From Myxococcota bacterium (GTDB taxonomy: Bacteria; Myxococcota_A; SURF-8; G963663525), in the NCBI GenBank assembly GCA_963676915.2, contig CAXXVK010000058.1, forward strand, positions 1 to 15,066: 15,066 bases of DNA. Reading direction: 5' to 3'. Below, piece after piece: positions 564 to 15,066 of this stretch (position 1 is its first letter; each line of letters opens with the position of its first letter). The notes beneath the pieces are model-generated. The model saw only the letters and a list, made by a program, of their open reading frames with translations, searched no databases and was not told the origin of the DNA. Both the position numbers and the translations under genes were made by a program.

Positions 564-2536
564 TTATTTCTTCTTGGCTTTCAAGGCTTCGTCGATGGCT
601 TTCTTGAAGGCTTCGATGGGCTGAGCGCCACGAAGTTTTTTGCCGTTGATGAAGCTGGTGGGCGTGCCGCGAGCACCGACCTTGTTGGCCTGCGTCTGCT
701 CGGCTTTGATCTGGGAAGCGATGGCGTCGCTTTCCATGGCGGCTTTCCACTTGCTGACGTTCAAGCCCAGTTCCTTGGCGTAGGCTTCCAAGTCGGCGTC
801 TTCCAGTTTTTGTTGTTGTCGAACAGTTTCTTGTGCATTTCCCAGAACTTGCCCTGCTCACCGGCGGCCATGACGGCTTTCGCGGCAGGCATTGCACGCT
901 TGTGGAAGCTCAGAGGCTGGTTTTTCCAGACGATTTTCAGCTTGTCGCCGTACTCTTCTTTCAGCTTGTCGATGGTCGGCTCCAGGCGCTTGCAGAAGGG
1001 GCATTGGAAATCGCTGAAGTATATGAGTTCGACCGGGGCGTTTTTGCCACCCGCGAAGTACGATTTTCCGGCAGTCACGTCGTAGACTTTGTTCGGGTCT
1101 TCCTGCGGACGCTTGGGTTTTTGCACGGCCTGGGTCGCACCGTTTTTGATCAACTCGGCATAAAGTTTATCACCTTTGAGTCCTTTTTCCTTCGCCAGTT
1201 TTTCGGCGGCGGGCAGGATGTCTTTGTCGATGAAGGATTTGAACATCTCGAAGGGACGAGCGCCGGAGAAGCTACGACCGTTGATGAAGAAACCGGGGGT
1301 TCCGCGAGCACCGAATTTCTGGAGCAGCTTGGAGTCGGATTCGACTTTGGCTACGGTCTTGGGATCTTTCATGTCCTTTTCGAACTTGGCCATGTTCAAG
1401 CCCAGCTCTTGGGCGAATTTCTTGAGGTTATCCTCTTTGAGAGCTTTCTGGTTGGCGAAGCATTTGTCATGGAATTCCCAGAATTTACCCTGCAAATGGG
1501 CGGCATGGGCAGCCTGCGAAGCCAGCTTGGCATCTTTGTGGAAGGGCAGAGGATTGTGCACGAAGAAGACGCGGATTTTTCCGGGGTAGGCTTCTTCCAG
1601 CAGTTTTTTCATCGTGGGGTTGACGCGGCTGCAGAAGGGGCATTGGAACTCGGAACCTTCGATGATAGTGATCAGAGCGTCCTTGTCGCCTTTCATCGGG
1701 GTGTTCGCGGGAACTTCGATTTTGTACACCGTGGTGTCTTCTTTACGTTCACGCGCTTTGGGAGCATCGGCCTTGGTTTTGGCGTTCTTGATGACTTCCG
1801 CATACACGTTTTTCACGCCTTTGGCCTTGATGGCTTTCGCGGCGGCCATTTCTTTGTCGATGACAGCTTTGAACTTTTCGAACGGCTGAGCGCCGGAAAG
1901 GCGAATACCGTTGATGAAGAAGTGAGGTGTTCCACGCGCCTGGAAACGCTGCGCAACGGCTTTGTCCTTCTGGATTTTGGCGTTGGTTTTGGGGTCTTTG
2001 AGGACTTCCTGGTACTTGGCCATATCCAAGCCGAGTTCTTTGGCGTATTTTTCAACGTCTTCCGGGCTCAACGCTTTGCGGTTTTCGAACAGCTTTTTGT
2101 GCATTTCCCAGAATTTGCCCTGGGCTTGAGCGGCGATGGATCCCAGGTGGCCGTTCATCGCGTTTTTATGGAAAGGAAGCGGGTTGTGCTTCCACACGAC
2201 GCGCACGTCTTTTCCGTAGGTTTCCAGAATTTTGTCCATGGTACCTTCCACGCGACCGCAGAAGGGGCATTCGAAGTCGGAAATTTCGATGATCGTGACG
2301 AGGGCGTCTTCTCCGCCGCCTTTAATCGGATCGTCATCGGCTACTTCGACCTTGAAACGTTCTTCATCTGTCTCGGTCTTTTTGACGGCTTTTTTCTCGG
2401 CTTTGTCGGCGACTTTCTTGGCGGGAGCTTCTTTTTTGGCCTCTTTGTCTCCGGCAGGCTGGCCGCACCCGGCAGCCAAAGCAAAGAAAAACAGTACGGT
2501 GGTCAGCATCGACCACTTCAAAATCACTTTACTCAT
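564..2536 (-). CDS. Lipoprotein with three tandem DsbA-like thioredoxin domains; 1-nt frameshift near 807-811
   Basis: Signal peptide with lipobox LAAG-C and a GGAGG RBS. Three CPFC motifs (codons at 2258-2269, 1631-1642, 992-1003) and three RGTP cis-Pro motifs. The third RGTP lies in ORF 564..791, a different frame. Adding one A to the A5 run joins ORFs 761..2536 and 564..791 into a 657-aa protein. Confidence 0.9.
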
Positions 2537-3858: not shown

Positions 3859-5499
3859 CTAGCCGACCATGGCTTTCAAATCGTCTTCCACGGTGGTGGT
3901 GGGTTTGATGTCGAATTTCTCGACGAGCACGTTGAGCACCGGTTCGGTAACGAAAGACGGCAGCGTCGGTCCGAGGCGGATGTTTTTGATTCCAAGGTGC
4001 AGCAGCGTCAGCAGGATCGCCACGGCTTTTTGTTCGTACCAACTCAACACCATCGACAACGGCAAGCTGTTGACATCGGTTTCAAAGGCATTGGCCAGCG
4101 CCACGGCGATTTGAATGGCGGAGTAGGCATCGTTGCATTGTCCGATGTCCAACAGGCGGGGAATACCTTCGATATCGCCGAACTCCAGCTTGTTGAACCG
4201 GTATTTTCCGCAAGCGAGCGTCAGAATCACCGAATCCTGCGGTACGGATTGGGCGAGATCGGTGAAGTAATTGCGTCCGGACTTCGCGCCGTCACAGCCG
4301 CCGATAAGGAAGAAGTGTTTGATTTTACCGGCTTTTACACCTTCGATCACCTTGTCCGCCACCGACAGCACGCTGTTACGGGCGAATCCGACCAGGATGG
4401 TTTTCTCTTCCTCGTCTTCGGCAAAACCTTCCGCAGCCAACGCCGCTTCGATCACCGGTGAAAAGTCCTGTCCGACGAGATGCCGAACTTCCGGCCAGGC
4501 AACGAGATTGGTGGTGAAAATCCTGGGGAAATAACTGGGCTGAGGACGTTGAATGCAGTTGGTGGTCATCAGAATCGCACCGGGGAAGGCATCGAATTCC
4601 TTGCGTTGATCCTGCCAGGCGCCTCCGTAATTGCCGACGAGATGGGAATACTTTTTCAACTCCGGGTAGCCGTGCGCCGGGAGCATTTCTCCATGCGTGT
4701 AAATGTTGATGCCCTTACCTTCGGTTTGTTTCAGCAACTCTTCCAAATCCTTCAGGTCGTGGCCGCTGACCAGGATCGCTTTGCCTTTGACCGGTGTGAC
4801 ACGAACCGGAGTGGGCACCGGATGTCCATAGGTGCCGGTGTTGGCGAAATCGAGCAGTTCCATGGTTTTGAGATTCATTTCCCCGACTTTGAGCGCCATG
4901 CCGAGGTAGTCGTTTACGTCATGCGTCGTGGCGAGAAAGTCCATTGCCTCGTGCACGAAGGCATAAACGCTTTCGTCTTCCTGCCCTAAAATCTGCGCAT
5001 GGTCGGCGTATGCGGCCAGACCTTTCAGGCCATAGGTGATCAACTCTTCCAACCCGGTAATATCCTCGCCTTTTTCCTTTTTCCGCAACTCGATGCCGAT
5101 CAGGGACGACAAATGCAGCCAGCCTTCGGGCGTCATAGCAAGATCCCAGGAAATGCCGTCACCGAGGTTTTCCGGTTCCTGTCCGGCGGCACGGCACTGG
5201 GTTTCATAGTCGTTTTGGGCTTTTTCTTTCAGTCGAAGAAGTTTTGCAAGCAAACCTTGCAAACGCTTGGGATCAAAATTGACGTTGGTAATCGTCGTAA
5301 ACAACCCTTCGATCATGAAGATATCGGTTTCATGGTCTTTGATTCCGAAGCCTCGCAAACGATGGGTGTAGCGAGCCAGGGATTTCAAGCCCTGAATCAT
5401 CAGATCCTGCAATGTGGCGGTTTGTGCGTCTTTGCCGCAGACTCCCACTTTGGTGCAGCCGGTTCCCTGAGCGCGCTGTTCACATTGGTAACAAAACAT
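3859..5499 (-). CDS. hcp: Hybrid cluster protein (hydroxylamine reductase / prismane protein)
   Basis: Starts MFCYQCEQ with C-x2-C-x8-C-x5-C; motifs SGHDL, YTHGEMLPAH, TTNC, GGCDG, LACGKYR, GQCND, SWYEQKA. The start is placed at 5499 (AAGGAG RBS) rather than 5547; 546 aa. Confidence 0.97.
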   Translation of the reverse strand: MFCYQCEQRAQGTGCTKVGVCGKDAQTATLQDLMIQGLKSLARYTHRLRGFGIKDHETDIFMIEGLFTTITNVNFDPKRLQGLLAKLLRLKEKAQNDYETQCRAAGQEPENLGDGISWDLAMTPEGWLHLSSLIGIELRKKEKGEDITGLEELITYGLKGLAAYADHAQILGQEDESVYAFVHEAMDFLATTHDVNDYLGMALKVGEMNLKTMELLDFANTGTYGHPVPTPVRVTPVKGKAILVSGHDLKDLEELLKQTEGKGINIYTHGEMLPAHGYPELKKYSHLVGNYGGAWQDQRKEFDAFPGAILMTTNCIQRPQPSYFPRIFTTNLVAWPEVRHLVGQDFSPVIEAALAAEGFAEDEEEKTILVGFARNSVLSVADKVIEGVKAGKIKHFFLIGGCDGAKSGRNYFTDLAQSVPQDSVILTLACGKYRFNKLEFGDIEGIPRLLDIGQCNDAYSAIQIAVALANAFETDVNSLPLSMVLSWYEQKAVAILLTLLHLGIKNIRLGPTLPSFVTEPVLNVLVEKFDIKPTTTVEDDLKAMVG

Positions 5500-5593
5500 G
5501 TCGTTCTCCTTTTCCATGGTTAAAATTCCAAACGTTGCGACATCCATTTCGTTGTTGTTCTTTGTCCAGCCTACGAGTTTGAGAATTTCTCGC

Positions 5594-8083: not shown

Positions 8084-8632
8084 ATGGCGGATCTTTTTTC
8101 GTTTTTATCCAAGCTGCGATTGTTCAAGGATTTTTCGAAAGAGGAAATCCATACGGTGATGCGCTCGCTCAACCGTATTCGATTCAAGGCTGACGAAATT
8201 CTGGCCTACGAAGGCAAAAAAGGCGACTCCATGTTCGTTATCGCCGAGGGAGTCGTAAAGGTCATGAGCGAAACCCACAAGGGTGTTGCAGTAACGTTGG
8301 CTCGTCTGGGTGAAGGGGAAGTGGTTGGCGAAATGGCACTGATCGACAACGGCGAACGCTCGGCCACCCTCGTCGCCGAAACCGACGGACGGGTCTATAA
8401 ATTGACTCGCAAAGACTTCAACGAGCTGATTCGCAAACTGGACCCGGCGGCATTCAAACTGCTCTGGGCCGTTACGATTGCCGGATGCGAACGCCTTCGG
8501 GAGGTGGACCGCCAAGTGGAACATTACCTGAAGAATCCCGAAACGCTCTACGAACCGGAAGTCAAAGACGGCATGGACCGTTCGGTGGTTACTCAGGCGG
8601 TTCATAAAATGATGAAGCTGTTCCGCAAGTAA
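8084..8632 (+). CDS. Stand-alone cyclic nucleotide-binding domain protein
   Basis: LF..F..EE, EG..GDSMFVIAEG.V.V and phosphate-binding cassette GEVVGEMALID...RSATLVA. No recognisable Crp HTH; 182 aa. Confidence 0.9.
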   Translation: MADLFSFLSKLRLFKDFSKEEIHTVMRSLNRIRFKADEILAYEGKKGDSMFVIAEGVVKVMSETHKGVAVTLARLGEGEVVGEMALIDNGERSATLVAETDGRVYKLTRKDFNELIRKLDPAAFKLLWAVTIAGCERLREVDRQVEHYLKNPETLYEPEVKDGMDRSVVTQAVHKMMKLFRK

Positions 8633-8662
8633 TTCCGGATCCGGCACGAAACGAGGCATGGT

Positions 8663-9316
8663 ATGACAGAAACGGCAGAAGATCGACAACGCATGGCCCA
8701 CCATGTGGAATTGTTGAAGAAATTCCCGGCGTTGAAACGTTTTCCAGAGAATGAGCTTCGGGTGTTGGCTCAAAACATGGAGGAATCCCGCTACAAAGCC
8801 GGACGTACTATCGTTCGGCAGGGTTCCGAAGGCTCCACCTGCTTTTTCGTTTTGTTCGGTAAAGTACAGGTTTTGAAAGAACTGGAGAGTGGCGGAGATA
8901 TTCTGCTGGCAACGGTCGGTCCCGGCTCTGTGCTGGGTCAGGTTTCCTTGCTGGACGGCGAACCGCGGTCGGCCACCTGTAAAGCCCTTGAAAACACCAT
9001 CGTTCTGGAATTGAGACGCGAGCGTTACCTGGAATTGTACCAAAACCGGGAACTGGTCGCATTACGGTTTCAACACCTGTTGTCCGTCTCGGTATTCAAG
9101 CAGATCCGTGAAGCCAACGAACGGGTTCGCAAAACCATACGTCTCGTCGGTGAAGACCACGAAGCGGAAGATATTTTCGAAAGCATGAAAGGCGCGTTGC
9201 AGGCGGTCGAGGAAATGGGAATCGATCTGGACGACGTGACCTACACCATCCTGGAAGGCCAGAAAAACGACCAGATGCGTGCTCGTCACGAGCGGATGAG
9301 ACGGGAAGGCAGCTAG
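8663..9316 (+). CDS. Stand-alone cyclic nucleotide-binding domain protein
   Basis: QG.EG..CFFVLFGKVQV and GSVLGQVSLLDGEPRSATCKA, followed by a helical acidic tail with no clear HTH. GAGG RBS; 30 nt after the previous gene. Confidence 0.9.
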   Translation: MTETAEDRQRMAHHVELLKKFPALKRFPENELRVLAQNMEESRYKAGRTIVRQGSEGSTCFFVLFGKVQVLKELESGGDILLATVGPGSVLGQVSLLDGEPRSATCKALENTIVLELRRERYLELYQNRELVALRFQHLLSVSVFKQIREANERVRKTIRLVGEDHEAEDIFESMKGALQAVEEMGIDLDDVTYTILEGQKNDQMRARHERMRREGS

Positions 9317-9780: not shown

Positions 9781-10590
9781 ATGGGGAATGGAACGAATCA
9801 TAAGGGAAAGACCGAAAACCGACTGATGCGCCGTGCCGGGAAGGCAGTAAAGCGTTTTCAGCTTATCGAAGCGGGTGACCGGGTGATGGTTGCCGTTTCC
9901 GGGGGTAAGGACAGTCTTAGTCTGCTATGGATTTTGCGAAATTTGCAGCGAAGGGCACCCGTGCATTTTGATTTGCTAGTCATTCATGTCGATCAACATA
10001 CTGGAGCTTATCCCAAAGATCGCCTGATTTCCTTTTTCGAAAACGAGGGGTTTGACTACCTTGTCGTGGACGAACCCGCCGGTGGTGCCATCGAACGTTT
10101 GACGAAGGAGGGAGCGAATCCCTGTTCGGTCTGTGCACGTTTGCGCCGGGGAATCCTCTACACACAAATGAAAAAACATGGATGCACCAAGCTGGCGTTG
10201 GGGCATCATCGCAACGATCTTGCTGCCACATTGTTGATGAATTTGCTGTTTACATCTCAAATCAAATCCATGCCGCCGAAATTGTTATCGGACGATGGTG
10301 CATGTATGGTCATTCGGCCATTGATTTATTGCGATGAATCGGATACAAGGATTTTCGCGAGAGAAATGGGGTTTCCGATCATCAAAGTGAATTGCCCGTA
10401 CGAACACCATCTGGAACATGGTGAACGTGCGGCTGCCGAACGGCTACTTGGCGAACTGGATAAAAAATATGGGGAAGCAACCGCCCACATTGCGGCGGCA
10501 TTGGGACGGGTAGTACCATCACATCTGACGGATGAACAACTTTTTGATTTTTCAGGGCTTTCTGCTCGAAAGTCTTCGGATCACGATTGA
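9781..10590 (+). CDS. ttcA: tRNA 2-thiocytidine(32) synthetase TtcA-like PP-loop ATPase
   Basis: PP-loop SGGKDS, CSVCARLRRGILY, LALGHH, IKSMPPKL.SDDG...VIRPL and VVPSHL.D..LFDF. Confidence 0.9.
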   Translation: MGNGTNHKGKTENRLMRRAGKAVKRFQLIEAGDRVMVAVSGGKDSLSLLWILRNLQRRAPVHFDLLVIHVDQHTGAYPKDRLISFFENEGFDYLVVDEPAGGAIERLTKEGANPCSVCARLRRGILYTQMKKHGCTKLALGHHRNDLAATLLMNLLFTSQIKSMPPKLLSDDGACMVIRPLIYCDESDTRIFAREMGFPIIKVNCPYEHHLEHGERAAAERLLGELDKKYGEATAHIAAALGRVVPSHLTDEQLFDFSGLSARKSSDHD

Positions 10591-10602
10591 AGGAACAACA
10601 CC

Positions 10603-13197
10603 ATGACGGATACTACGGTACGAAAAGAACCTCAAAAAGAGACCCGAACGGAGGAAAAAGTCGTTCGTAAACGAAAAAAGGTTCGGCGCAAACGAAAAAG
10701 CGAGGTGCAACCACGGATACAAATCGAGAAGGTTATCGGATATTTGTTTGCAGGATTGATGTTTTTTACACCATTTCTTGCAGGAACCTTCGATACTACC
10801 GCTCACCGTGAAACCGCATTGACGCTACTTCGGGCGTGTTGTGTCAGTATTTTCATTTTGCTCGGCATATCTTTGATTATTCGTAAAAAACCGGTCAAAA
10901 TTTCTTTGTTTTTCGGATTGCTGGTTGTGTTTTCTTCCTGGCTGCTGTTTCAGCTTCTGCCCCTTCCCGGTTTTCTTCTGAAAATGTTTTCCTGGACCGC
11001 TCACGATCTCTATCAGGCGAATCTGGCTGATCTGGGGCCGATCCTGGCTACGGCCTGGCGACCGATTTCTTTGGACGTATCGGTCAGCGGGTCATATTTC
11101 GCCAATATTTCCTGCTTCTTGGGAATATTCTTCGTTACCGCTGTTTTAATGCCACGAGAACGCCGTTTTCGTGAAATTCTCAATGTCCTATGGGTTACCG
11201 CTGGCGTACTCGGTATTTTGGGACTGGTGCATTTCGTCATGGGTGCATCCCGCATGTATGGTGTTATTCCACTTGCGGAAAACACGCCGCGTTTTTTCTC
11301 GACCTTTCATTCTCCCGAAGAACTTGCGGCTTTTATCGGAATTTCGATTCTTGTGCTGTTAAGTATGTCGGCCGAAGAGTTGAGCAAGGAAAGCCGCAAA
11401 CGTAACAAGCGGTATTTCTTGATGTTTCTGTATCTCGTCGTAGTTTTCATGTTGAATGCCAGCCATTCCGCCAACATTGCTTTGGTGCTTGCTTCGGCCT
11501 TTCTTCTCTGGAAATTTCTCAAGCGTAACAAAGAACGGTTGGGAGTGCTGGCCTGGGGGCAGTTCGCCATCATCGCCACGGCAAGCCTTCTCGTTTTCGT
11601 TGTACGTTTTTTGCTCAACATCCTCGGAAAAACCTCGATTCCGACCACTTCGTTGGGACAACAGGGAGAAATCTGGGGCGATTCTCTACGGGTTCTTGGG
11701 AATTTTCCGTTCTCGGGAATGGGATTCGGGAACTTCTCCATCGCCCACGGGATCTTCCGTTCTTCGGCGCAGACCGATATCGTGAATCATCCGGATAATT
11801 TCATTTTTCAGTTGTTTGCAGAACTCGGGATTCCGGCAGGGGTGCTGCTGCTGCTGCTCGTTCTTTGGGTGGTTATCGATATTCTTCGCAACAAGCAAAT
11901 GCGGCGAATCGAAATGGGTATGGCGTCGTCGTTGATCTTCTTGTTGGTGTTCAATCTTTGGGATTCCAATCTGAATTCGTTCGCCATTGCCTTACCATTT
12001 ACATTTATACTTGCCGTCATGGCTCGGCGAAGGGGGGAGAGATCACACGGAACGAAGTTTTTACGAAAAAAACTTGAGCTTCCCGTGGGGCTTGCAGTTG
12101 CGATGCTTGGGTTGCTGTCGTTTTTCGTACTGTTCGGTACTGCGAAAGCTTTCCTCAATAATCCGGAAAAAGCGCGGATATTCCTGGCCTTGCACGCCGC
12201 AGAAAAAACGCCCGCCCGCTCCGTGGCGGATATCGCCATTCGACAGGCTTTGCATCCACATCCTCTGGATTGGCGGTTGTACCGACTGGCAGCCCAGACC
12301 TATTCGGACCGTTCCGAAAACGAGCGGAAGCAAAAAATCGCGTTTCTCGAAAAAGCGATTCATCTGAACCCGCTTCATTCTCCGTTGCATCTCCAATTGG
12401 GTATTGTTTCCCTGAAACAGCAGGATCGAAAAAAAGCGCTTGCCGCGTTTAGGAAAGCTTGTGCTTACTCGAAAGGCAAAGGGTCGCTCCGAACCATCTG
12501 GAACGCCATGCTCGAAAATGGGCTAAACGCAGAAGCCTTGGTCGAAGTAACACCGGACCAGGCCAAAGCCCATAGAAATCTCGTGTTTTATCTGGTGGAT
12601 CTTGGATTGACGAATGGACTTGAAGCGTTGCTTCGAGAAACTTCCGAGGGAGCATTGTCCAATGACCGGGCCGTTTTGCTCGCCAAAGCACTGATTGCTG
12701 AAAAGAACGGGGATTTCAACACCCTGAAAATGCTTGCGAATCGTTTATCGGCAGAGTTCTCGGGTTATCAATACGGCTACGCCCTGAAAGCCATGGTTTT
12801 TCTTGAAGAAAACGATCTGGAAGCCGCAAAAACACAGTTGGAAAAAGGCGAAAAGAAGCGGGGAAGAAGCTCGCTGTACCTGACTGCAAAATACCGCTAC
12901 CTGTTGAAGCAAAACGACGATCAAGCGGCGGAATCCACTCTCAAGCGCATGGAAGCCATTTATTTCAGGAACGAGGTGTTCAAACCCCGAAGAGACGAAC
13001 TGGCGGCGGAAGTGGCGGAAGCTCGCGGCGATGTCGATTCTGCGGTGCAACTCTTGCGCGACGCGCTGAAAGCCGGTAGAAATCAGAAACGGCTTTTGAA
13101 CAAAATCCGGGAACTGGAAACTCGAAAAACCGAAGGAGAACCGCCATCTCCCCCGACAACACAACCCGCCGAGAAAGACGTTCCACCGGTCCCGTAA
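10603..13197 (+). CDS. O-antigen ligase (Wzy_C/WaaL-like) family membrane protein with C-terminal TPR-like region
   Basis: About 12 hydrophobic segments; IW.DSL......P.SG.GFGNF and NHPDN...QLFAELG..G signatures; helical TPR-like tail (EKAIHLNP...LG....A...FRKA). AAGGA RBS; 12 nt after ttcA. Confidence 0.8.
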   Translation: MTDTTVRKEPQKETRTEEKVVRKRKKVRRKRKSEVQPRIQIEKVIGYLFAGLMFFTPFLAGTFDTTAHRETALTLLRACCVSIFILLGISLIIRKKPVKISLFFGLLVVFSSWLLFQLLPLPGFLLKMFSWTAHDLYQANLADLGPILATAWRPISLDVSVSGSYFANISCFLGIFFVTAVLMPRERRFREILNVLWVTAGVLGILGLVHFVMGASRMYGVIPLAENTPRFFSTFHSPEELAAFIGISILVLLSMSAEELSKESRKRNKRYFLMFLYLVVVFMLNASHSANIALVLASAFLLWKFLKRNKERLGVLAWGQFAIIATASLLVFVVRFLLNILGKTSIPTTSLGQQGEIWGDSLRVLGNFPFSGMGFGNFSIAHGIFRSSAQTDIVNHPDNFIFQLFAELGIPAGVLLLLLVLWVVIDILRNKQMRRIEMGMASSLIFLLVFNLWDSNLNSFAIALPFTFILAVMARRRGERSHGTKFLRKKLELPVGLAVAMLGLLSFFVLFGTAKAFLNNPEKARIFLALHAAEKTPARSVADIAIRQALHPHPLDWRLYRLAAQTYSDRSENERKQKIAFLEKAIHLNPLHSPLHLQLGIVSLKQQDRKKALAAFRKACAYSKGKGSLRTIWNAMLENGLNAEALVEVTPDQAKAHRNLVFYLVDLGLTNGLEALLRETSEGALSNDRAVLLAKALIAEKNGDFNTLKMLANRLSAEFSGYQYGYALKAMVFLEENDLEAAKTQLEKGEKKRGRSSLYLTAKYRYLLKQNDDQAAESTLKRMEAIYFRNEVFKPRRDELAAEVAEARGDVDSAVQLLRDALKAGRNQKRLLNKIRELETRKTEGEPPSPPTTQPAEKDVPPVP

Positions 13198-15066
13198 AAC
13201 GCGGAAACCGCATTGCCGTATTCGATTCCGGGGTGGGCGGAATCGAACTGTATCGTTTGTTGCGCACGCTTTTGCCAAACGAACGCTTTTTCTATTTCGC
13301 CGATACGCGCAACAATCCGTATGGGGAAAAATCTCCCGACATCATCGCCGGATACCTGGATTCGATCTTGAAGGGGTTTTGTCTGCGCGGTGCGAAACTG
13401 ATCCTCGTGGCCTGCAATACGGCTTCGGCGGTCTGGCTCGACCTGGATTCCCACCACCCTCTGAAAACCTTCATGCGCGAGGAAGGGGTTGACGTCGTTC
13501 CGATGCTCCACCCGCAGGTGCTGGCGGAACTCGTTTCGAATCCCCCTAAACGGCTGTTGGTCGCCGCTACGTCTTTGACCGTGGCTTCCGGCCATTATCT
13601 GCGGCTGGTCAAACGATATCTGCCCGAAACCGACGTTCGGCAGGTCGCGGCACCTCAATGGGTGCGAGTCGTCGAAACCATGGGTGACGCCAACGAGCGG
13701 CAAGCAGCCGTCGATGATGTTTTAGCCCAGGTGGAAGGGTGGAAACCCGATACTTTGCTGCTAGGCTGCACGCATTTTTCCCGCCTGACGGCGGAATTGC
13801 AAAACCGTTTGGACAAGTCCTGCCGGATCGTCAACCCCGTCCACGCACTGGCGCATTTCGTGGCGGGATATCTCGATGTTCGTGGCCTTTCGGCTGCCGG
13901 TCCGAACCCTGCAACCGAGAACGTCCCAACGCTGTTCACCAACGGAGATCCCGACGCGCTTCGGAATCATCTGGCACTCTGGAAGGAATCCGAACAATTT
14001 CAGGTGCGTTTATTGGACGTGCGCGACGAGCTGGCCGGGAAACGGATCGATATCGTGGGCTTGGGAATGACGGGACAAAGTCTGTTTCGCCACGTCATGA
14101 ACCGTGGTGCATTGCGAGTCATTCTGAGAGATAAAGGGAAAACTCTCGAACAATTTCAACACCTTTCCGACCATCGCCTTGCCGATGACGACCTGCGCTT
14201 CGGTGACGCCTATTTGCAGGGATTGGAACATTCCGACCTGATTTTGCGCTCTCCGGGCGTTCCCAACGATCTTCCCGAATTCGACAAGGCTAGGGAGAAG
14301 AACATTCCGATTCTGGGCGATGTCGAGTTGTTTCTTCAGGAAGCCCGAGGCGATATCGGCCTGGTGACCGGTACCAACGGAAAAACCACAACCACCTTGT
14401 TATTGCACGAGTTTTTCAATAACGACCGGCCTGGACAAGCGATGCTGATCGGCAACGTGGGACAACCGGTGCTCGACCGGCTCGACGAAACCCGTAAGGA
14501 AAGCCGCATTGCCTTGGAGTTGTCCTCCTTCCAGATCGAAACCCTCAACCGTGCCCGAGCCGATGTTGCGATCTTGCTGAATCTCACGCCCGACCATCTC
14601 GACCGACACGGCGATTTCGCCGGGTACGCCGAAGCCAAGGGACGCTTGATCACCTTGCTGGATGCTTCCTCCTACGTGGTGTACAATCTCGAAGATCCCG
14701 AAATCGTCAACCGTATTCTTCCGATGGGCACGAAAGCCCGGACGGTTCCGTTTTCGACCCGCCGTGTCCTTCCGTATGGAGGAATGCTGGACGGATCGGA
14801 TCTCGTACTGAAACTTGAAGGAAAATCGCCGTTCGTCTTAGAAAACTACCTGAACCGAAAACGGTTTACCGGTGACCATAACCTGGAAAACATGTTGGCG
14901 GCGCTGCTGGGAGCCTGGTTGATCGGCGTACGCCCGGAGATTCTCGCGGAGGTGGCTTTAGCCTTTTCCGGAGTGGAATATCGCATCGAACCGTTTGCGT
15001 TGCGCCATGGGGTCACGTATTTCGACGACTCGAAGGGTACCAACCCGGATGCAACCATCAAAGCGC
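13146..15066 (+). CDS. murI-murD: Glutamate racemase fused in frame to UDP-N-acetylmuramoyl-L-alanine--D-glutamate ligase (runs off the window; start uncertain)
   Basis: Manual translation of the frame containing ATT at 13212 shows no stop from 13080 to 15066. MurI motifs: IAVFDSGVGG, PYGEKS, VACNTAS (Cys 13413), LLGCTHF (Cys 13767). MurD motifs: IVGLGMTG (14058), SPGVP, TGTNGKTTT (14370), GNVG, ELSSFQ, NLTPDHLDRH, GDHNLEN, DDSKGTN (15024). Confidence 0.93.
   Translation, partial: MSPDNTTRRERRSTGPVKRGNRIAVFDSGVGGIELYRLLRTLLPNERFFYFADTRNNPYGEKSPDIIAGYLDSILKGFCLRGAKLILVACNTASAVWLDLDSHHPLKTFMREEGVDVVPMLHPQVLAELVSNPPKRLLVAATSLTVASGHYLRLVKRYLPETDVRQVAAPQWVRVVETMGDANERQAAVDDVLAQVEGWKPDTLLLGCTHFSRLTAELQNRLDKSCRIVNPVHALAHFVAGYLDVRGLSAAGPNPATENVPTLFTNGDPDALRNHLALWKESEQFQVRLLDVRDELAGKRIDIVGLGMTGQSLFRHVMNRGALRVILRDKGKTLEQFQHLSDHRLADDDLRFGDAYLQGLEHSDLILRSPGVPNDLPEFDKAREKNIPILGDVELFLQEARGDIGLVTGTNGKTTTTLLLHEFFNNDRPGQAMLIGNVGQPVLDRLDETRKESRIALELSSFQIETLNRARADVAILLNLTPDHLDRHGDFAGYAEAKGRLITLLDASSYVVYNLEDPEIVNRILPMGTKARTVPFSTRRVLPYGGMLDGSDLVLKLEGKSPFVLENYLNRKRFTGDHNLENMLAALLGAWLIGVRPEILAEVALAFSGVEYRIEPFALRHGVTYFDDSKGTNPDATIKA

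What the first reader, a model, noticed from the sequence alone, without database searches (positions are those of the whole stretch)
13146..15066. Single-ORF fusion of glutamate racemase (MurI) with MurD
Seen: one uninterrupted reading frame, absent from the ORF track because it leaves the window. It carries a complete MurI domain (about 13209-14010, both catalytic Cys in CNT and GCTH) joined through ...WKESEQFQVRLLDVRDELAGKRIDIVGLG... to a MurD with intact P-loop, ELSSFQ, DHLDRH and DSKGTN motifs. Known: MurI makes the D-Glu that MurD adds to UDP-MurNAc-L-Ala; the genes are normally separate, with murD in the dcw cluster; E. coli MurI is activated by UDP-MurNAc-L-Ala to couple the two steps. 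Inference: a bifunctional enzyme that physically couples or channels D-Glu supply to peptidoglycan precursor synthesis. I do not know of a characterised MurI-MurD fusion but cannot search to confirm novelty.
Basis: partly seen in the sequence, partly recalled or inferred. Interest (0 to 1): 0.85.

Follow-up and report, generated by a model that had tools for sequence, protein, structure and literature searches.

The report
Fused glutamate racemase–MurD cell-wall enzyme
One gene here joins the enzyme that makes D-glutamate to the enzyme that adds it to the cell-wall precursor; this rare natural fusion is kept across a small group of uncultured bacteria and has apparently not been described.

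Summary
One frame is open from 13080 to the contig end at 15066. It encodes a complete MurI (glutamate racemase) domain joined by about five residues to MurD, which the contig end cuts at profile position 334 of 441.

It is not an assembly artefact. Full-length orthologues of 754-765 aa (804 aa in the same-genus G001, from a doubtful start) occur in 9 of 10 genomes of the order, two of them single-contig. In a 401-genome sample of the phylum, only those 9 have it. Contigs from another study bridge the junction without indels.

It is the only murI and the only murD found in the genome, and murD is missing from its usual dcw slot. Catalytic residues of both halves are invariant.

About 1.84 billion representative proteins gave only four such fused representatives. 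A MurD tree needs three gains or losses of the fused state.

No paper found describes it; databases call it plain MurD. Channelling is untested.

In this genus the gene has no ATG/GTG/TTG start; ATT at 13212 is the likely one.

Verdict: a real, moderately interesting new Mur chimera.

The parts
13212..15066 (+). murI-murD fused ORF, from the probable ATT start to the contig end; the 3' end is missing
   Evidence: Uninterrupted frame. Domain hits. Full-length orthologues of 754-765 aa, plus 804 aa in G001 from a doubtful TTG start.
13212..14024 (+). MurI (glutamate racemase) domain, P0001 residues 23-293
   Evidence: TIGR00067 profile 1-223 at 13212-13898. NF002035 profile 5-265/267. Aligns to solved MurI chains with FDSG, ACNTA and GCTH in register.
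13413..13415 (+). Codon of the first catalytic Cys (Cys90 of P0001, in ACNTAS)
   Evidence: Invariant in 9 of 9 and 19 of 19 fused proteins. Aligned to the Cys of 2jfu and 5ijw.
13767..13769 (+). Codon of the second catalytic Cys (Cys208, in GCTHF)
   Evidence: Invariant. Aligned to the Cys of 2jfu and 5ijw.
14004..14042 (+). Junction: the last MurI strand (VRLLDV) runs straight into the MurD N-terminus (RDELAGK); the linker is about 5 residues
   Evidence: Alignment A1 has V287, R288, D291, R293, G298 and K299 invariant. The AF2 model of the orthologue is ordered here, with 10-residue block means of pLDDT 82 on either side of the junction. Contigs of runs X1 and X3 cross it without indels.
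14025..15065 (+). MurD N-terminal and central domains and the start of the C-terminal domain
   Evidence: TIGR01087 profile 2-334/441 at 14046-15065, 226 bits, over the cut-off. PDB MurD chains match at E 8e-44.
14370..14396 (+). MurD ATP-binding P-loop GTNGKTTTT
   Evidence: Invariant G409-T417.
13199..13214 (+). 13 nt (ACGCGGAAACCGC) identical to the same-genus genome, followed by ATT (ATC there); the probable non-canonical start, 14 nt after the upstream stop
   Evidence: The next 7 codons differ at 5 sites between the two genomes, and all 5 changes are synonymous.
13077..13079 (+). In-frame TAG that opens the frame; no ATG/GTG/TTG between it and 13233
   Evidence: Read.
10603..13197 (+). 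Upstream gene: 864-aa membrane protein with a Wzy_C (O-antigen ligase-like) domain and C-terminal TPR repeats
   Evidence: Pfam. The same gene lies directly upstream of the fusion in G001 and G007.
9781..10590 (+). ttcA (tRNA 2-thiocytidine synthetase), 12 nt upstream of the Wzy_C-TPR gene; probably the same operon
   Evidence: NF007972 at 294 bits, over the cut-off. A PP-loop gene sits in the same place in G001.

Best explanation
The ORF encodes one polypeptide with two active enzymes of peptidoglycan precursor synthesis. The N-terminal ~270 residues are a cofactor-independent, two-cysteine glutamate racemase (MurI) that converts L-Glu to D-Glu. [quoted passage not shown] The two are joined head to tail with almost no linker. 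The fusion arose once in the ancestor of three of the four families of this order, when murD left the dcw cluster and joined murI. It is now the organism's only murI and only murD. What the fusion achieves is inferred, not shown: fixed 1:1 expression of the D-Glu supplier and its consumer, and D-Glu produced beside the site that uses it. That is a hard-wired way to match D-Glu supply to demand, which E. coli achieves by activating MurI with UDP-MurNAc-L-Ala. In this genus translation most likely starts at a non-canonical ATT/ATC codon just after the stop of the upstream gene.
For: Shown: the frame is continuous and both domains are recognised.

Nine of 10 genomes of the order, including two single-contig genomes, carry a match across both domains. 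For the 8 relatives, full-length ORFs run to 754-765 aa (804 aa in G001 from a doubtful TTG start) without stop or frameshift, at 45-48% identity to the window, 78% in the same genus.

In a 401-genome sample of the phylum, only those 9 have a match spanning both domains. Logan contigs from a second study (X3, 13908-14185) cross the junction with substitutions only.

In the own genome this is the only TIGR01087 hit over the cut-off and the only TIGR00067 hit. The dcw cluster runs mraY-ftsW with no murD between them. In G001, G003, G004 and G007 the fused gene is the only MurI hit.

FDSG, both Cys, the P-loop, ELSSFQ, DHLDRH and DDSKGTNPDA are invariant in 9 of 9 sequences. The two Cys align to those of solved MurI.

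The residues aligned to E. coli MurD Asp182, Lys198, Lys319 and Lys348 are Asp, Lys, Lys and Lys in the G001 orthologue. Asp182 and Lys348 are the D-Glu determinants according to PMC8788868.

The AF2 model of the G001 orthologue has pLDDT 89 and pTM 0.77 with an ordered junction. Foldseek gives MurD at TMt 0.86 (4uag) and MurI at TMt 0.87 (3hfr). No D-amino-acid transaminase hit exceeds its cut-off in 5 of 5 genomes tested.
Against: No activity, protein or RNA data exist. No RNA run was listed.

The window copy lacks its 3' end, so the C-terminal domain of this particular gene is unseen.

The window's MurI domain scores 136-139 bits, below the TIGR00067 cut-off of 146.65. G001 is also below it at 123.6. 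G003, G004 and G007 are above.

The gene has no canonical start codon in this genus.

The same MAG has several frameshifted dcw genes. Its sequence quality, or the state of its peptidoglycan pathway, is therefore uncertain.

Class IV aminotransferase homologues below the Dat cut-off exist and could supply some D-Glu.
Confidence: 0.8

Rival explanations
1. One reading frame but two proteins. An internal start near the junction (for example GTG 14019) yields a free MurD, and the fused form is minor or absent.
For: An in-frame GTG codon (Val292) lies at 14019-14021. Nothing I could run excludes internal initiation.
Against: That position is Val only in the two genomes of this genus and Ile in the other 7 orthologues. 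No Met or other start-capable residue is conserved near the junction. The junction is among the best conserved stretches and has no spacer. Frame continuity has been kept across ~46% identity in 9 of 9 genomes.
Confidence: 0.08
2. The MurI half is no longer a racemase. It acts as a regulatory or structural module of MurD, as proposed for the MurF-like half of the MurF'-Alr chimera, and D-Glu comes from another enzyme.
For: The window's MurI domain is below the TIGR00067 cut-off. Class IV aminotransferase homologues exist in G000, G001, G002 and G007. A precedent for a modulating half in a Mur-racemase chimera is PMC13726279 (abstract and passages).
Against: Both catalytic Cys, the FDSG motif and the CTH His are invariant in 19 of 19 fused proteins. 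The model superposes on solved MurI at TMt 0.87. No other MurI hit exists in 5 fused-gene genomes. No Dat hit exceeds its cut-off, and G003 (single contig) has no hit at all at E <= 1e-5.
Confidence: 0.07
3. Artefact: a chimeric contig or a sequencing error removed the stop between two adjacent genes.
For: The MAG has frameshift-like breaks in mraY, murG and murC, and coverage in the runs found is low.
Against: The same fusion occurs in 8 other genomes, including two closed ones, and in 14 protein clusters from several sources. Independent contigs span the junction without gaps.
Confidence: 0.02

Closest known systems
Natural Mur chimeras (MurE-MurF, MurC-Ddl, MurC-MurB, MurG-MurC, MurD-FtsW, MraY-MurG), surveyed in PMC10214165 (passages read); MurB/C of Verrucomicrobium in PMC4803751 (passages)
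   Same: Two peptidoglycan-precursor enzymes in one polypeptide, lineage-restricted, some with no linker. The proposed benefits are stoichiometry, stability and passing on of intermediates.
   Different: The partner here is MurI, which does not occur in that survey's text ('MurI' and 'racemase' each occur 0 times). The racemase's product is a co-substrate of the ligase rather than the nucleotide intermediate.
MurF'-Alr chimeric alanine racemase of Bacteroidota and Chloroflexota (PMC13726279; abstract and passages); NCBIfam NF008897 bifunctional MurF/alanine racemase (seen as a hit name)
   Same: A Mur ligase-type module fused to the racemase that supplies a D-amino acid for the stem peptide.
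   Different: The domain order is reversed (ligase at the N-terminus). The racemase is PLP-dependent. The two steps are not consecutive, and the ligase-like half is thought to modulate rather than ligate. Here both halves keep their catalytic residues and the steps are consecutive.
E. coli MurI, whose activity rises about 100-fold with UDP-MurNAc-L-Ala (review PMC3037491, passage read)
   Same: The same biological problem: tie D-Glu production to the availability of MurD's other substrate.
   Different: In E. coli the coupling is allosteric between separate proteins. Here the two enzymes are covalently joined. Whether the fused racemase also responds to UDP-MurNAc-L-Ala is unknown.
MurD2/MurL alternative route of Xanthomonas (PMC8788868; passages)
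   Same: Another lineage-specific solution for placing D-Glu at position 2 of the stem peptide.
   Different: MurD2 ligates L-Glu and MurL epimerises it afterwards. The fused protein has the canonical Asp and Lys (not the Glu and Arg of MurD2) at the two stereospecificity positions, and it carries its own MurI.
Independent MurI-MurD fusions P0130 (761 aa, labelled Limnochordales MAG, 5 cluster members) and P0131 (718 aa)
   Same: The same N-to-C order of Asp_Glu_race, MurD-like_N, Mur_ligase_M and Mur_ligase_C.
   Different: Only 28-31% identical to the G001 orthologue. Their MurD halves nest among unfused MurDs elsewhere in the tree. P0130 has a ~40-residue linker.

Membership tests
[quoted passage not shown] | Score over the curated equivalog cut-off | tested here: met
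   223.6-226 bits against a cut-off of 211.95, although only profile positions 2-334 of 441 are present.
[quoted passage not shown] | ATP P-loop and catalytic residues aligned to E. coli Asp182/His183, Lys198 and Lys319 | tested here: met
   GTNGKTTTT, DHLDRH, YAEAKG and DDSKGTN are present in the window and invariant in 9 of 9. Register with E. coli MurD (2jff) was checked on the G001 orthologue. Residue numbers are from PMC8788868; the role of Lys198 is recalled.
[quoted passage not shown] | C-terminal domain with the D-Glu-binding Lys348 equivalent | not testable with these tools
   It lies beyond the contig end in the window and was not found elsewhere in the assembly. It is met in the G001 orthologue (GGDNK aligned to GGDGK) and is a Lys in at least 90% of 19 fused proteins.
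[quoted passage not shown] | Three-domain Mur ligase fold | tested here: met
   AF2 model of the G001 orthologue against E. coli MurD 4uag: TMt 0.86, E 2.5e-23. This was tested on the orthologue, not on the truncated window protein.
MurI, glutamate racemase (NCBIfam TIGR00067; Pfam PF01177) | Score over the curated cut-off | tested here: inconclusive
   TIGR00067 gives 136.3-139 bits against a cut-off of 146.65 in the window. G001 scores 123.6 (below). G003, G004 and G007 score 148.6-166.4 (above). Pfam Asp_Glu_race gives 40.7 bits, above its gathering score of 31.
MurI, glutamate racemase (NCBIfam TIGR00067; Pfam PF01177) | Two catalytic cysteines (ACNTA and GCTH motifs) and the N-terminal DSG substrate motif | tested here: met
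   Cys90, Cys208, Asp27, Ser28 and His210 are invariant and aligned to the same residues in solved MurI 2jfu and 5ijw. The two-cysteine mechanism is stated in PMC3037491. Assigning it to these motifs is recalled.
MurI, glutamate racemase (NCBIfam TIGR00067; Pfam PF01177) | MurI fold over its full length | tested here: met
   Foldseek against 3hfr gives TMt 0.87, rmsd 2.5 over 270 columns. NF002035 covers profile 5-265 of 267.
Natural Mur chimera (fused peptidoglycan-precursor enzymes) | Both enzymes in one conserved ORF in several genomes, not a one-off | tested here: met
   9 of 10 genomes of the order; 14 clusters at 90% identity.
Natural Mur chimera (fused peptidoglycan-precursor enzymes) | Made and active as one polypeptide | not testable with these tools
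   Needs protein work. No RNA run was listed.
MurD2 (L-Glu-adding ligase of the MurD2/MurL route) | Glu and Arg at the positions of E. coli Asp182 and Lys348 | tested here: not met
   Asp and Lys are found there, so it is not filed as MurD2.

The most novel reading that the evidence does not exclude
The fusion is a gated two-step machine rather than mere co-expression. The racemase is switched on, or its D-Glu is handed over without mixing with the cytoplasmic pool, only when the MurD half holds UDP-MurNAc-L-Ala and ATP. The cell would then keep almost no free D-Glu. That would be a covalent replacement for the E. coli-type activation of MurI. It would also be the first Mur chimera in which an amino-acid racemase feeds its ligase directly.
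Probability: 0.2. Interest if true: 0.65.

Novelty: new variant of a known kind. Interest (0 to 1): 0.45.

Why it matters
Natural fusions are used as evidence that peptidoglycan precursor enzymes work as a complex. A MurI-MurD chimera extends that idea to the supply of the D-amino acid itself. It offers a compact, expressible system to ask whether D-Glu is channelled or its production gated. It also shows a second evolutionary answer to the need to match D-Glu synthesis to demand. Practically, public annotation calls these proteins plain MurD, so such genomes look as if they lack MurI. Pathway reconstructions for these lineages would wrongly infer a missing D-Glu source.

Tried and rejected
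Complex prediction, with the MurI half (residues 1-270) against the MurD half (271-751) of alignment A3, returned 'no answer' (score 0.01, mark 0.32). It says nothing either way about a domain interface.

No RNA holder was listed for the stretch.

Logan contigs left most of 14400-15066 uncovered. A 'joint' 14386->14583 in run X1 comes from 20-26-nt pieces of a 6.8-kb contig with unrelated flanks, i.e. another organism's conserved motifs. Neither was used.

It gave no fused relatives and no usable taxonomy.

The phylum was not named. The only label on a close orthologue is a submitter's 'Myxococcales bacterium', which I did not verify.

The search 'murI + murD + gene fusion' was swamped by 'murine' and is uninformative. 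PMC5885031 had none of the terms I looked for.

The search of earlier findings was not open.

A start at GTG 13233 (the gene callers' choice; P0002 starts at the equivalent Val) was rejected. The 7 codons before it carry 5 synonymous and 0 non-synonymous differences between the two genomes of the genus, and they encode the invariant IAVFDSG.

A longer N-terminus overlapping the upstream gene was rejected. G001 has a TTG at -56 but G000 has none, and the peptide there is not conserved.

The '1 TGA' reported for G005 lies upstream of its ATG start, not inside the gene.
Full report
**1. The observation**

The window is a whole contig (C58, 15,066 bp) of a 74-contig, 90.8%-complete assembly. Frame 3 of the + strand is open from 13080, after TAG at 13077-13079, to the last base.

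The translation (P0001, 640 aa from 13146) matches three Pfam families above their gathering scores:
- Asp_Glu_race
- MurD-like_N
- Mur_ligase_M

The NCBIfam results are:
- murD TIGR01087 at 223.6 bits (cut-off 211.95), although the contig end stops the match at profile position 334 of 441.
- glut_race TIGR00067 at 136.3 bits (cut-off 146.65).
- The glutamate racemase model NF002035 over positions 5-265 of 267, at residues 22-292.

MurD therefore starts about seven residues after MurI ends. Two corrections concern where the frame opens and where it starts (section 4).

**2. It is real and conserved**

A six-frame search of 40 relatives plus the own genome found matches spanning both domains in G001 (same genus, 78% identity) and in G003-G009 (same order, 46-48%). 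The 31 same-phylum genomes scored had no match spanning both halves. Where both halves were listed, they lay at separate places.

- All 10 genomes of the order were searched. Nine carry the fusion. G002 (another family) matched only with the MurD part, and it had no MurI family hit at 95% completeness.
- In an even sample of 401 genomes of the phylum, 13 had a match at E <= 1e-50. Nine of these (the same nine) spanned both domains and four covered MurD only.
- The orthologous ORFs are 754-765 aa from ATG or GTG starts. G001's is 804 aa from a doubtful TTG. None has an internal stop.
- G003 and G007 are single-contig genomes.

Logan contigs were laid on 12900-15066:
- A contig of run X1 (possibly the source sample) covers 12900-14030 with no difference.
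- A contig of X3, from a different study and a ~95% strain, covers 13908-14185 with 10 substitutions and no gap.
- No indel was reported anywhere. Most of 14400-15066 was not covered.

An assembly artefact is excluded.

**3. Both halves look catalytically competent**

The following are invariant in the 9-sequence alignment:
- R-I-x-x-FDSG-x-GG
- ACxTAS (Cys90)
- CTHF (Cys208, His210)
- GTNGKTTTT
- ELSSFQ
- PDHLDRHG
- DDSKGTNPDA

The two Cys, the DSG motif, His210, the G..GK.TT core of the P-loop and His484 remain invariant when the alignment grows to 19 fused proteins, including the two distant ones.

The window's MurI domain aligns to solved racemases with FDSGVGG, ACNTA and GCTH in register.

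The MurD half of the G001 orthologue aligns to E. coli MurD. The Asp-His of DHLDRH falls on Asp182-His183, and Lys residues fall on Lys198, Lys319 and Lys348. Asp182 and Lys348 decide D-Glu versus L-Glu use, and MurD2 has Glu and Arg there (PMC8788868, passages). The ligase is therefore of the canonical D-Glu type.

An AlphaFold2 model of the G001 orthologue (751 aa, 19-row alignment) has mean pLDDT 89 and pTM 0.77, and it is ordered through the junction. Foldseek matches MurD (4uag, TMt 0.86) and MurI (3hfr, TMt 0.87). No solved chain covers both halves.

**4. The start codon**

Orthologues in the other families start with ATG or GTG 9-13 codons before the Phe of FDSG. In this genus there is no ATG, GTG or TTG between the opening stop and GTG 13233, which lies inside FDSGVGG.

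- The seven codons before that GTG (ATT GCC GTA TTC GAT TCC GGG) differ from G001 at five sites, all synonymous. They encode the invariant IAVFDSG, so they are translated.
- The 13 nt before the ATT (ATC in G001) are identical in the two genomes, while the sequence further upstream is not conserved.
- The ATT lies 14 nt after the stop of the upstream gene (23 nt in G001).

I infer initiation at ATT 13212, possibly coupled to termination of the upstream gene. This is inference only. Contigs from three runs cover this region without indels, so it is not an obvious sequencing error.

**5. Genomic role**

In the own genome the fused gene is the only MurD hit over the cut-off and the only MurI hit.

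The dcw cluster on contig C11 reads rsmH-ftsL-ftsI-murE-murF-mraY-ftsW-murG-murC-ddl-ftsA-ftsZ. mraY abuts ftsW, so murD is missing from its usual slot.

In G001, G003, G004 and G007 the fused gene is again the only MurI hit. In G003 and G007 it lies more than 1 Mb from the dcw cluster.

No D-amino-acid transaminase hit exceeds its cut-off in G000, G001, G002, G003 or G007. Weaker class IV aminotransferase hits exist in four of the five.

The gene sits in a tight + strand row: ttcA, then an 864-aa Wzy_C-TPR membrane protein, then murI-murD. The Wzy_C-TPR gene is also the immediate upstream neighbour in G001 and G007. G003 has an IS110 transposase there instead.

**6. How widespread, and is it known?**

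Among 5.8 billion clustered proteins, 2,190 scored E <= 1e-20 and the best 120 were listed. Of those, 14 (P0002-P0015, 744-765 aa) carry both Asp_Glu_race and Mur ligase domains and cover 95-98% of the query. The rest are ordinary MurDs of 375-485 aa. Where a source names them, the name is only 'UDP-N-acetylmuramoylalanine--D-glutamate ligase'.

A profile of the nine fused sequences was run against 1.84 billion representatives. Of the best 150 listed, four are MurI-MurD. Two represent this clade. The others are P0130 (761 aa) and P0131 (718 aa), confirmed by Pfam.

- P0130's cluster has five members on five contigs from three sources. One is labelled a Limnochordales MAG.
- P0131 is seen on two contigs.

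I built a tree of MurD halves with 77 rows. These were 19 fused sequences, 50 of the unfused 440-500-aa representatives (the top 25 plus 25 drawn at random), and 8 unfused sequences. All other hits were left out.

The tree puts the 17 fused proteins of this clade in one branch (SH-aLRT 100). P0130 and P0131 each sit among unfused MurDs. Well-supported branches force at least three changes of state. That is most simply three separate fusions, though gains followed by losses are not excluded.

Literature:
- 'glutamate racemase + MurD + fusion' returned 13 papers, none on this fusion.
- Six phrasings of MurI-MurD returned 0 papers.
- 'glutamate racemase + D-glutamate ligase + bifunctional' returned 13 papers, none relevant by title or abstract.
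- The systematic survey of Mur chimeras (PMC10214165, passages read) lists MurE-MurF, MurC-Ddl, MurC-MurB, MurG-MurC, MurD-FtsW and MraY-MurG. It contains 'MurI' and 'racemase' zero times. It excluded unidentified species, and its supplements could not be opened.

So the architecture is present but unflagged in databases. I found no description of it in print.

**7. Mechanism and rivals**

The best reading (0.8) is a bifunctional enzyme doing two consecutive steps. The benefit of fusion is inferred. It would give fixed stoichiometry and local supply of D-Glu, by analogy with the UDP-MurNAc-L-Ala activation of E. coli MurI (PMC3037491, passage).

The very short, conserved junction and the fairly high pTM suggest a defined arrangement of the halves. 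No coordinates were available, and the complex job gave no verdict.

The rivals are:
- separate products from internal initiation (0.08)
- a non-catalytic MurI half (0.07)
- an artefact (0.02)

**8. Verdict**

This is a genuine, conserved and apparently undescribed member of the class of natural Mur chimeras, with a new partner. It is a neat 'Rosetta stone' link between D-Glu supply and use, and it is easy to test by heterologous expression.

It is not a new kind of system, and channelling remains speculation. Interest 0.45. Novelty: new variant of a known kind.

Noticed in passing
G000:C11:~91500-96100 (L102:7492-12199, minus strand): In the own genome's dcw cluster, mraY is in 2 pieces, murG in 2 and murC in 4, and ddl lacks its first ~50 profile positions. 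G001, G003 and G007 have intact mraY and murC. This is either frameshift errors in this MAG or recent decay of the pathway.
   Followed up: partly
G000:C60:118625-119989 (L005:349-2892): An 848-aa ORF joins an N-terminal PBP4B/beta-lactamase-like serine hydrolase (residues 46-343) to a C-terminal Mpl-like murein peptide ligase (385-843, 353.8 bits, just under the Mpl cut-off). ORFs of 862-905 aa with the same ligase match occur in G001, G003 and G007. This may be a second peptidoglycan-related fusion of the order.
   Followed up: partly
window 10603-13197: An 864-aa Wzy_C (O-antigen ligase-like) plus TPR membrane protein lies directly upstream of murI-murD. The pairing is conserved in G001 and G007 but not G003, which has IS110 there. 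No NCBIfam match. A functional link to the fused gene is unknown.
   Followed up: partly
L102:4318-6435 (minus strand): The FtsA ORF is 706 aa. The FtsA profile covers only residues 314-682, leaving a ~300-aa N-terminal extension that is unannotated and sits where ftsQ would be expected.
   Followed up: no
Orthologues, last ~25 residues (A1 columns 800-828): All 8 full-length fused orthologues end in a conserved tail (...LGxxE...[LI]xDPLA...) beyond where the solved MurD chains end in the alignments. Its function is unknown, and this part is missing from the window.
   Followed up: no
G002 (same order, family f2): The one genome of the order without the fusion has a stand-alone MurD and no MurI family hit at 95% completeness. 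It also has the two strongest class IV aminotransferase hits (150.7 and 115.3 bits, below the Dat cut-off), so it may use a different D-Glu source.
   Followed up: partly
Proteins P0140, P0149, P0266, P0241, P0200: Other rare MurD architectures appear among the representatives. Three are double Mur ligases of 912-941 aa, with another ligase N-terminal to MurD. One has a tRNA_Me_trans HUP domain in front of a MurD lacking its N domain (569 aa). One is a 746-aa MurD with a ~300-aa C-terminal extension that has no Pfam hit.
   Followed up: partly
window 764-2536 (-), 3862-5547 (-), 8084-9313 (+): The rest of the window holds a 591-aa protein with three DsbA/thioredoxin-type repeats, a hybrid-cluster (prismane) protein, a carboxyltransferase, truA, and two adjacent cNMP-binding-domain proteins. 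Nothing links them to the finding.
   Followed up: no
L103:9499-14493 (G001, downstream of the fusion): A 1,665-aa ORF with at least 11 Kazal-type protease-inhibitor domains follows the fused gene in G001. This is unusual in bacteria. Whether it also follows in G000 cannot be seen, because the contig ends.
   Followed up: no
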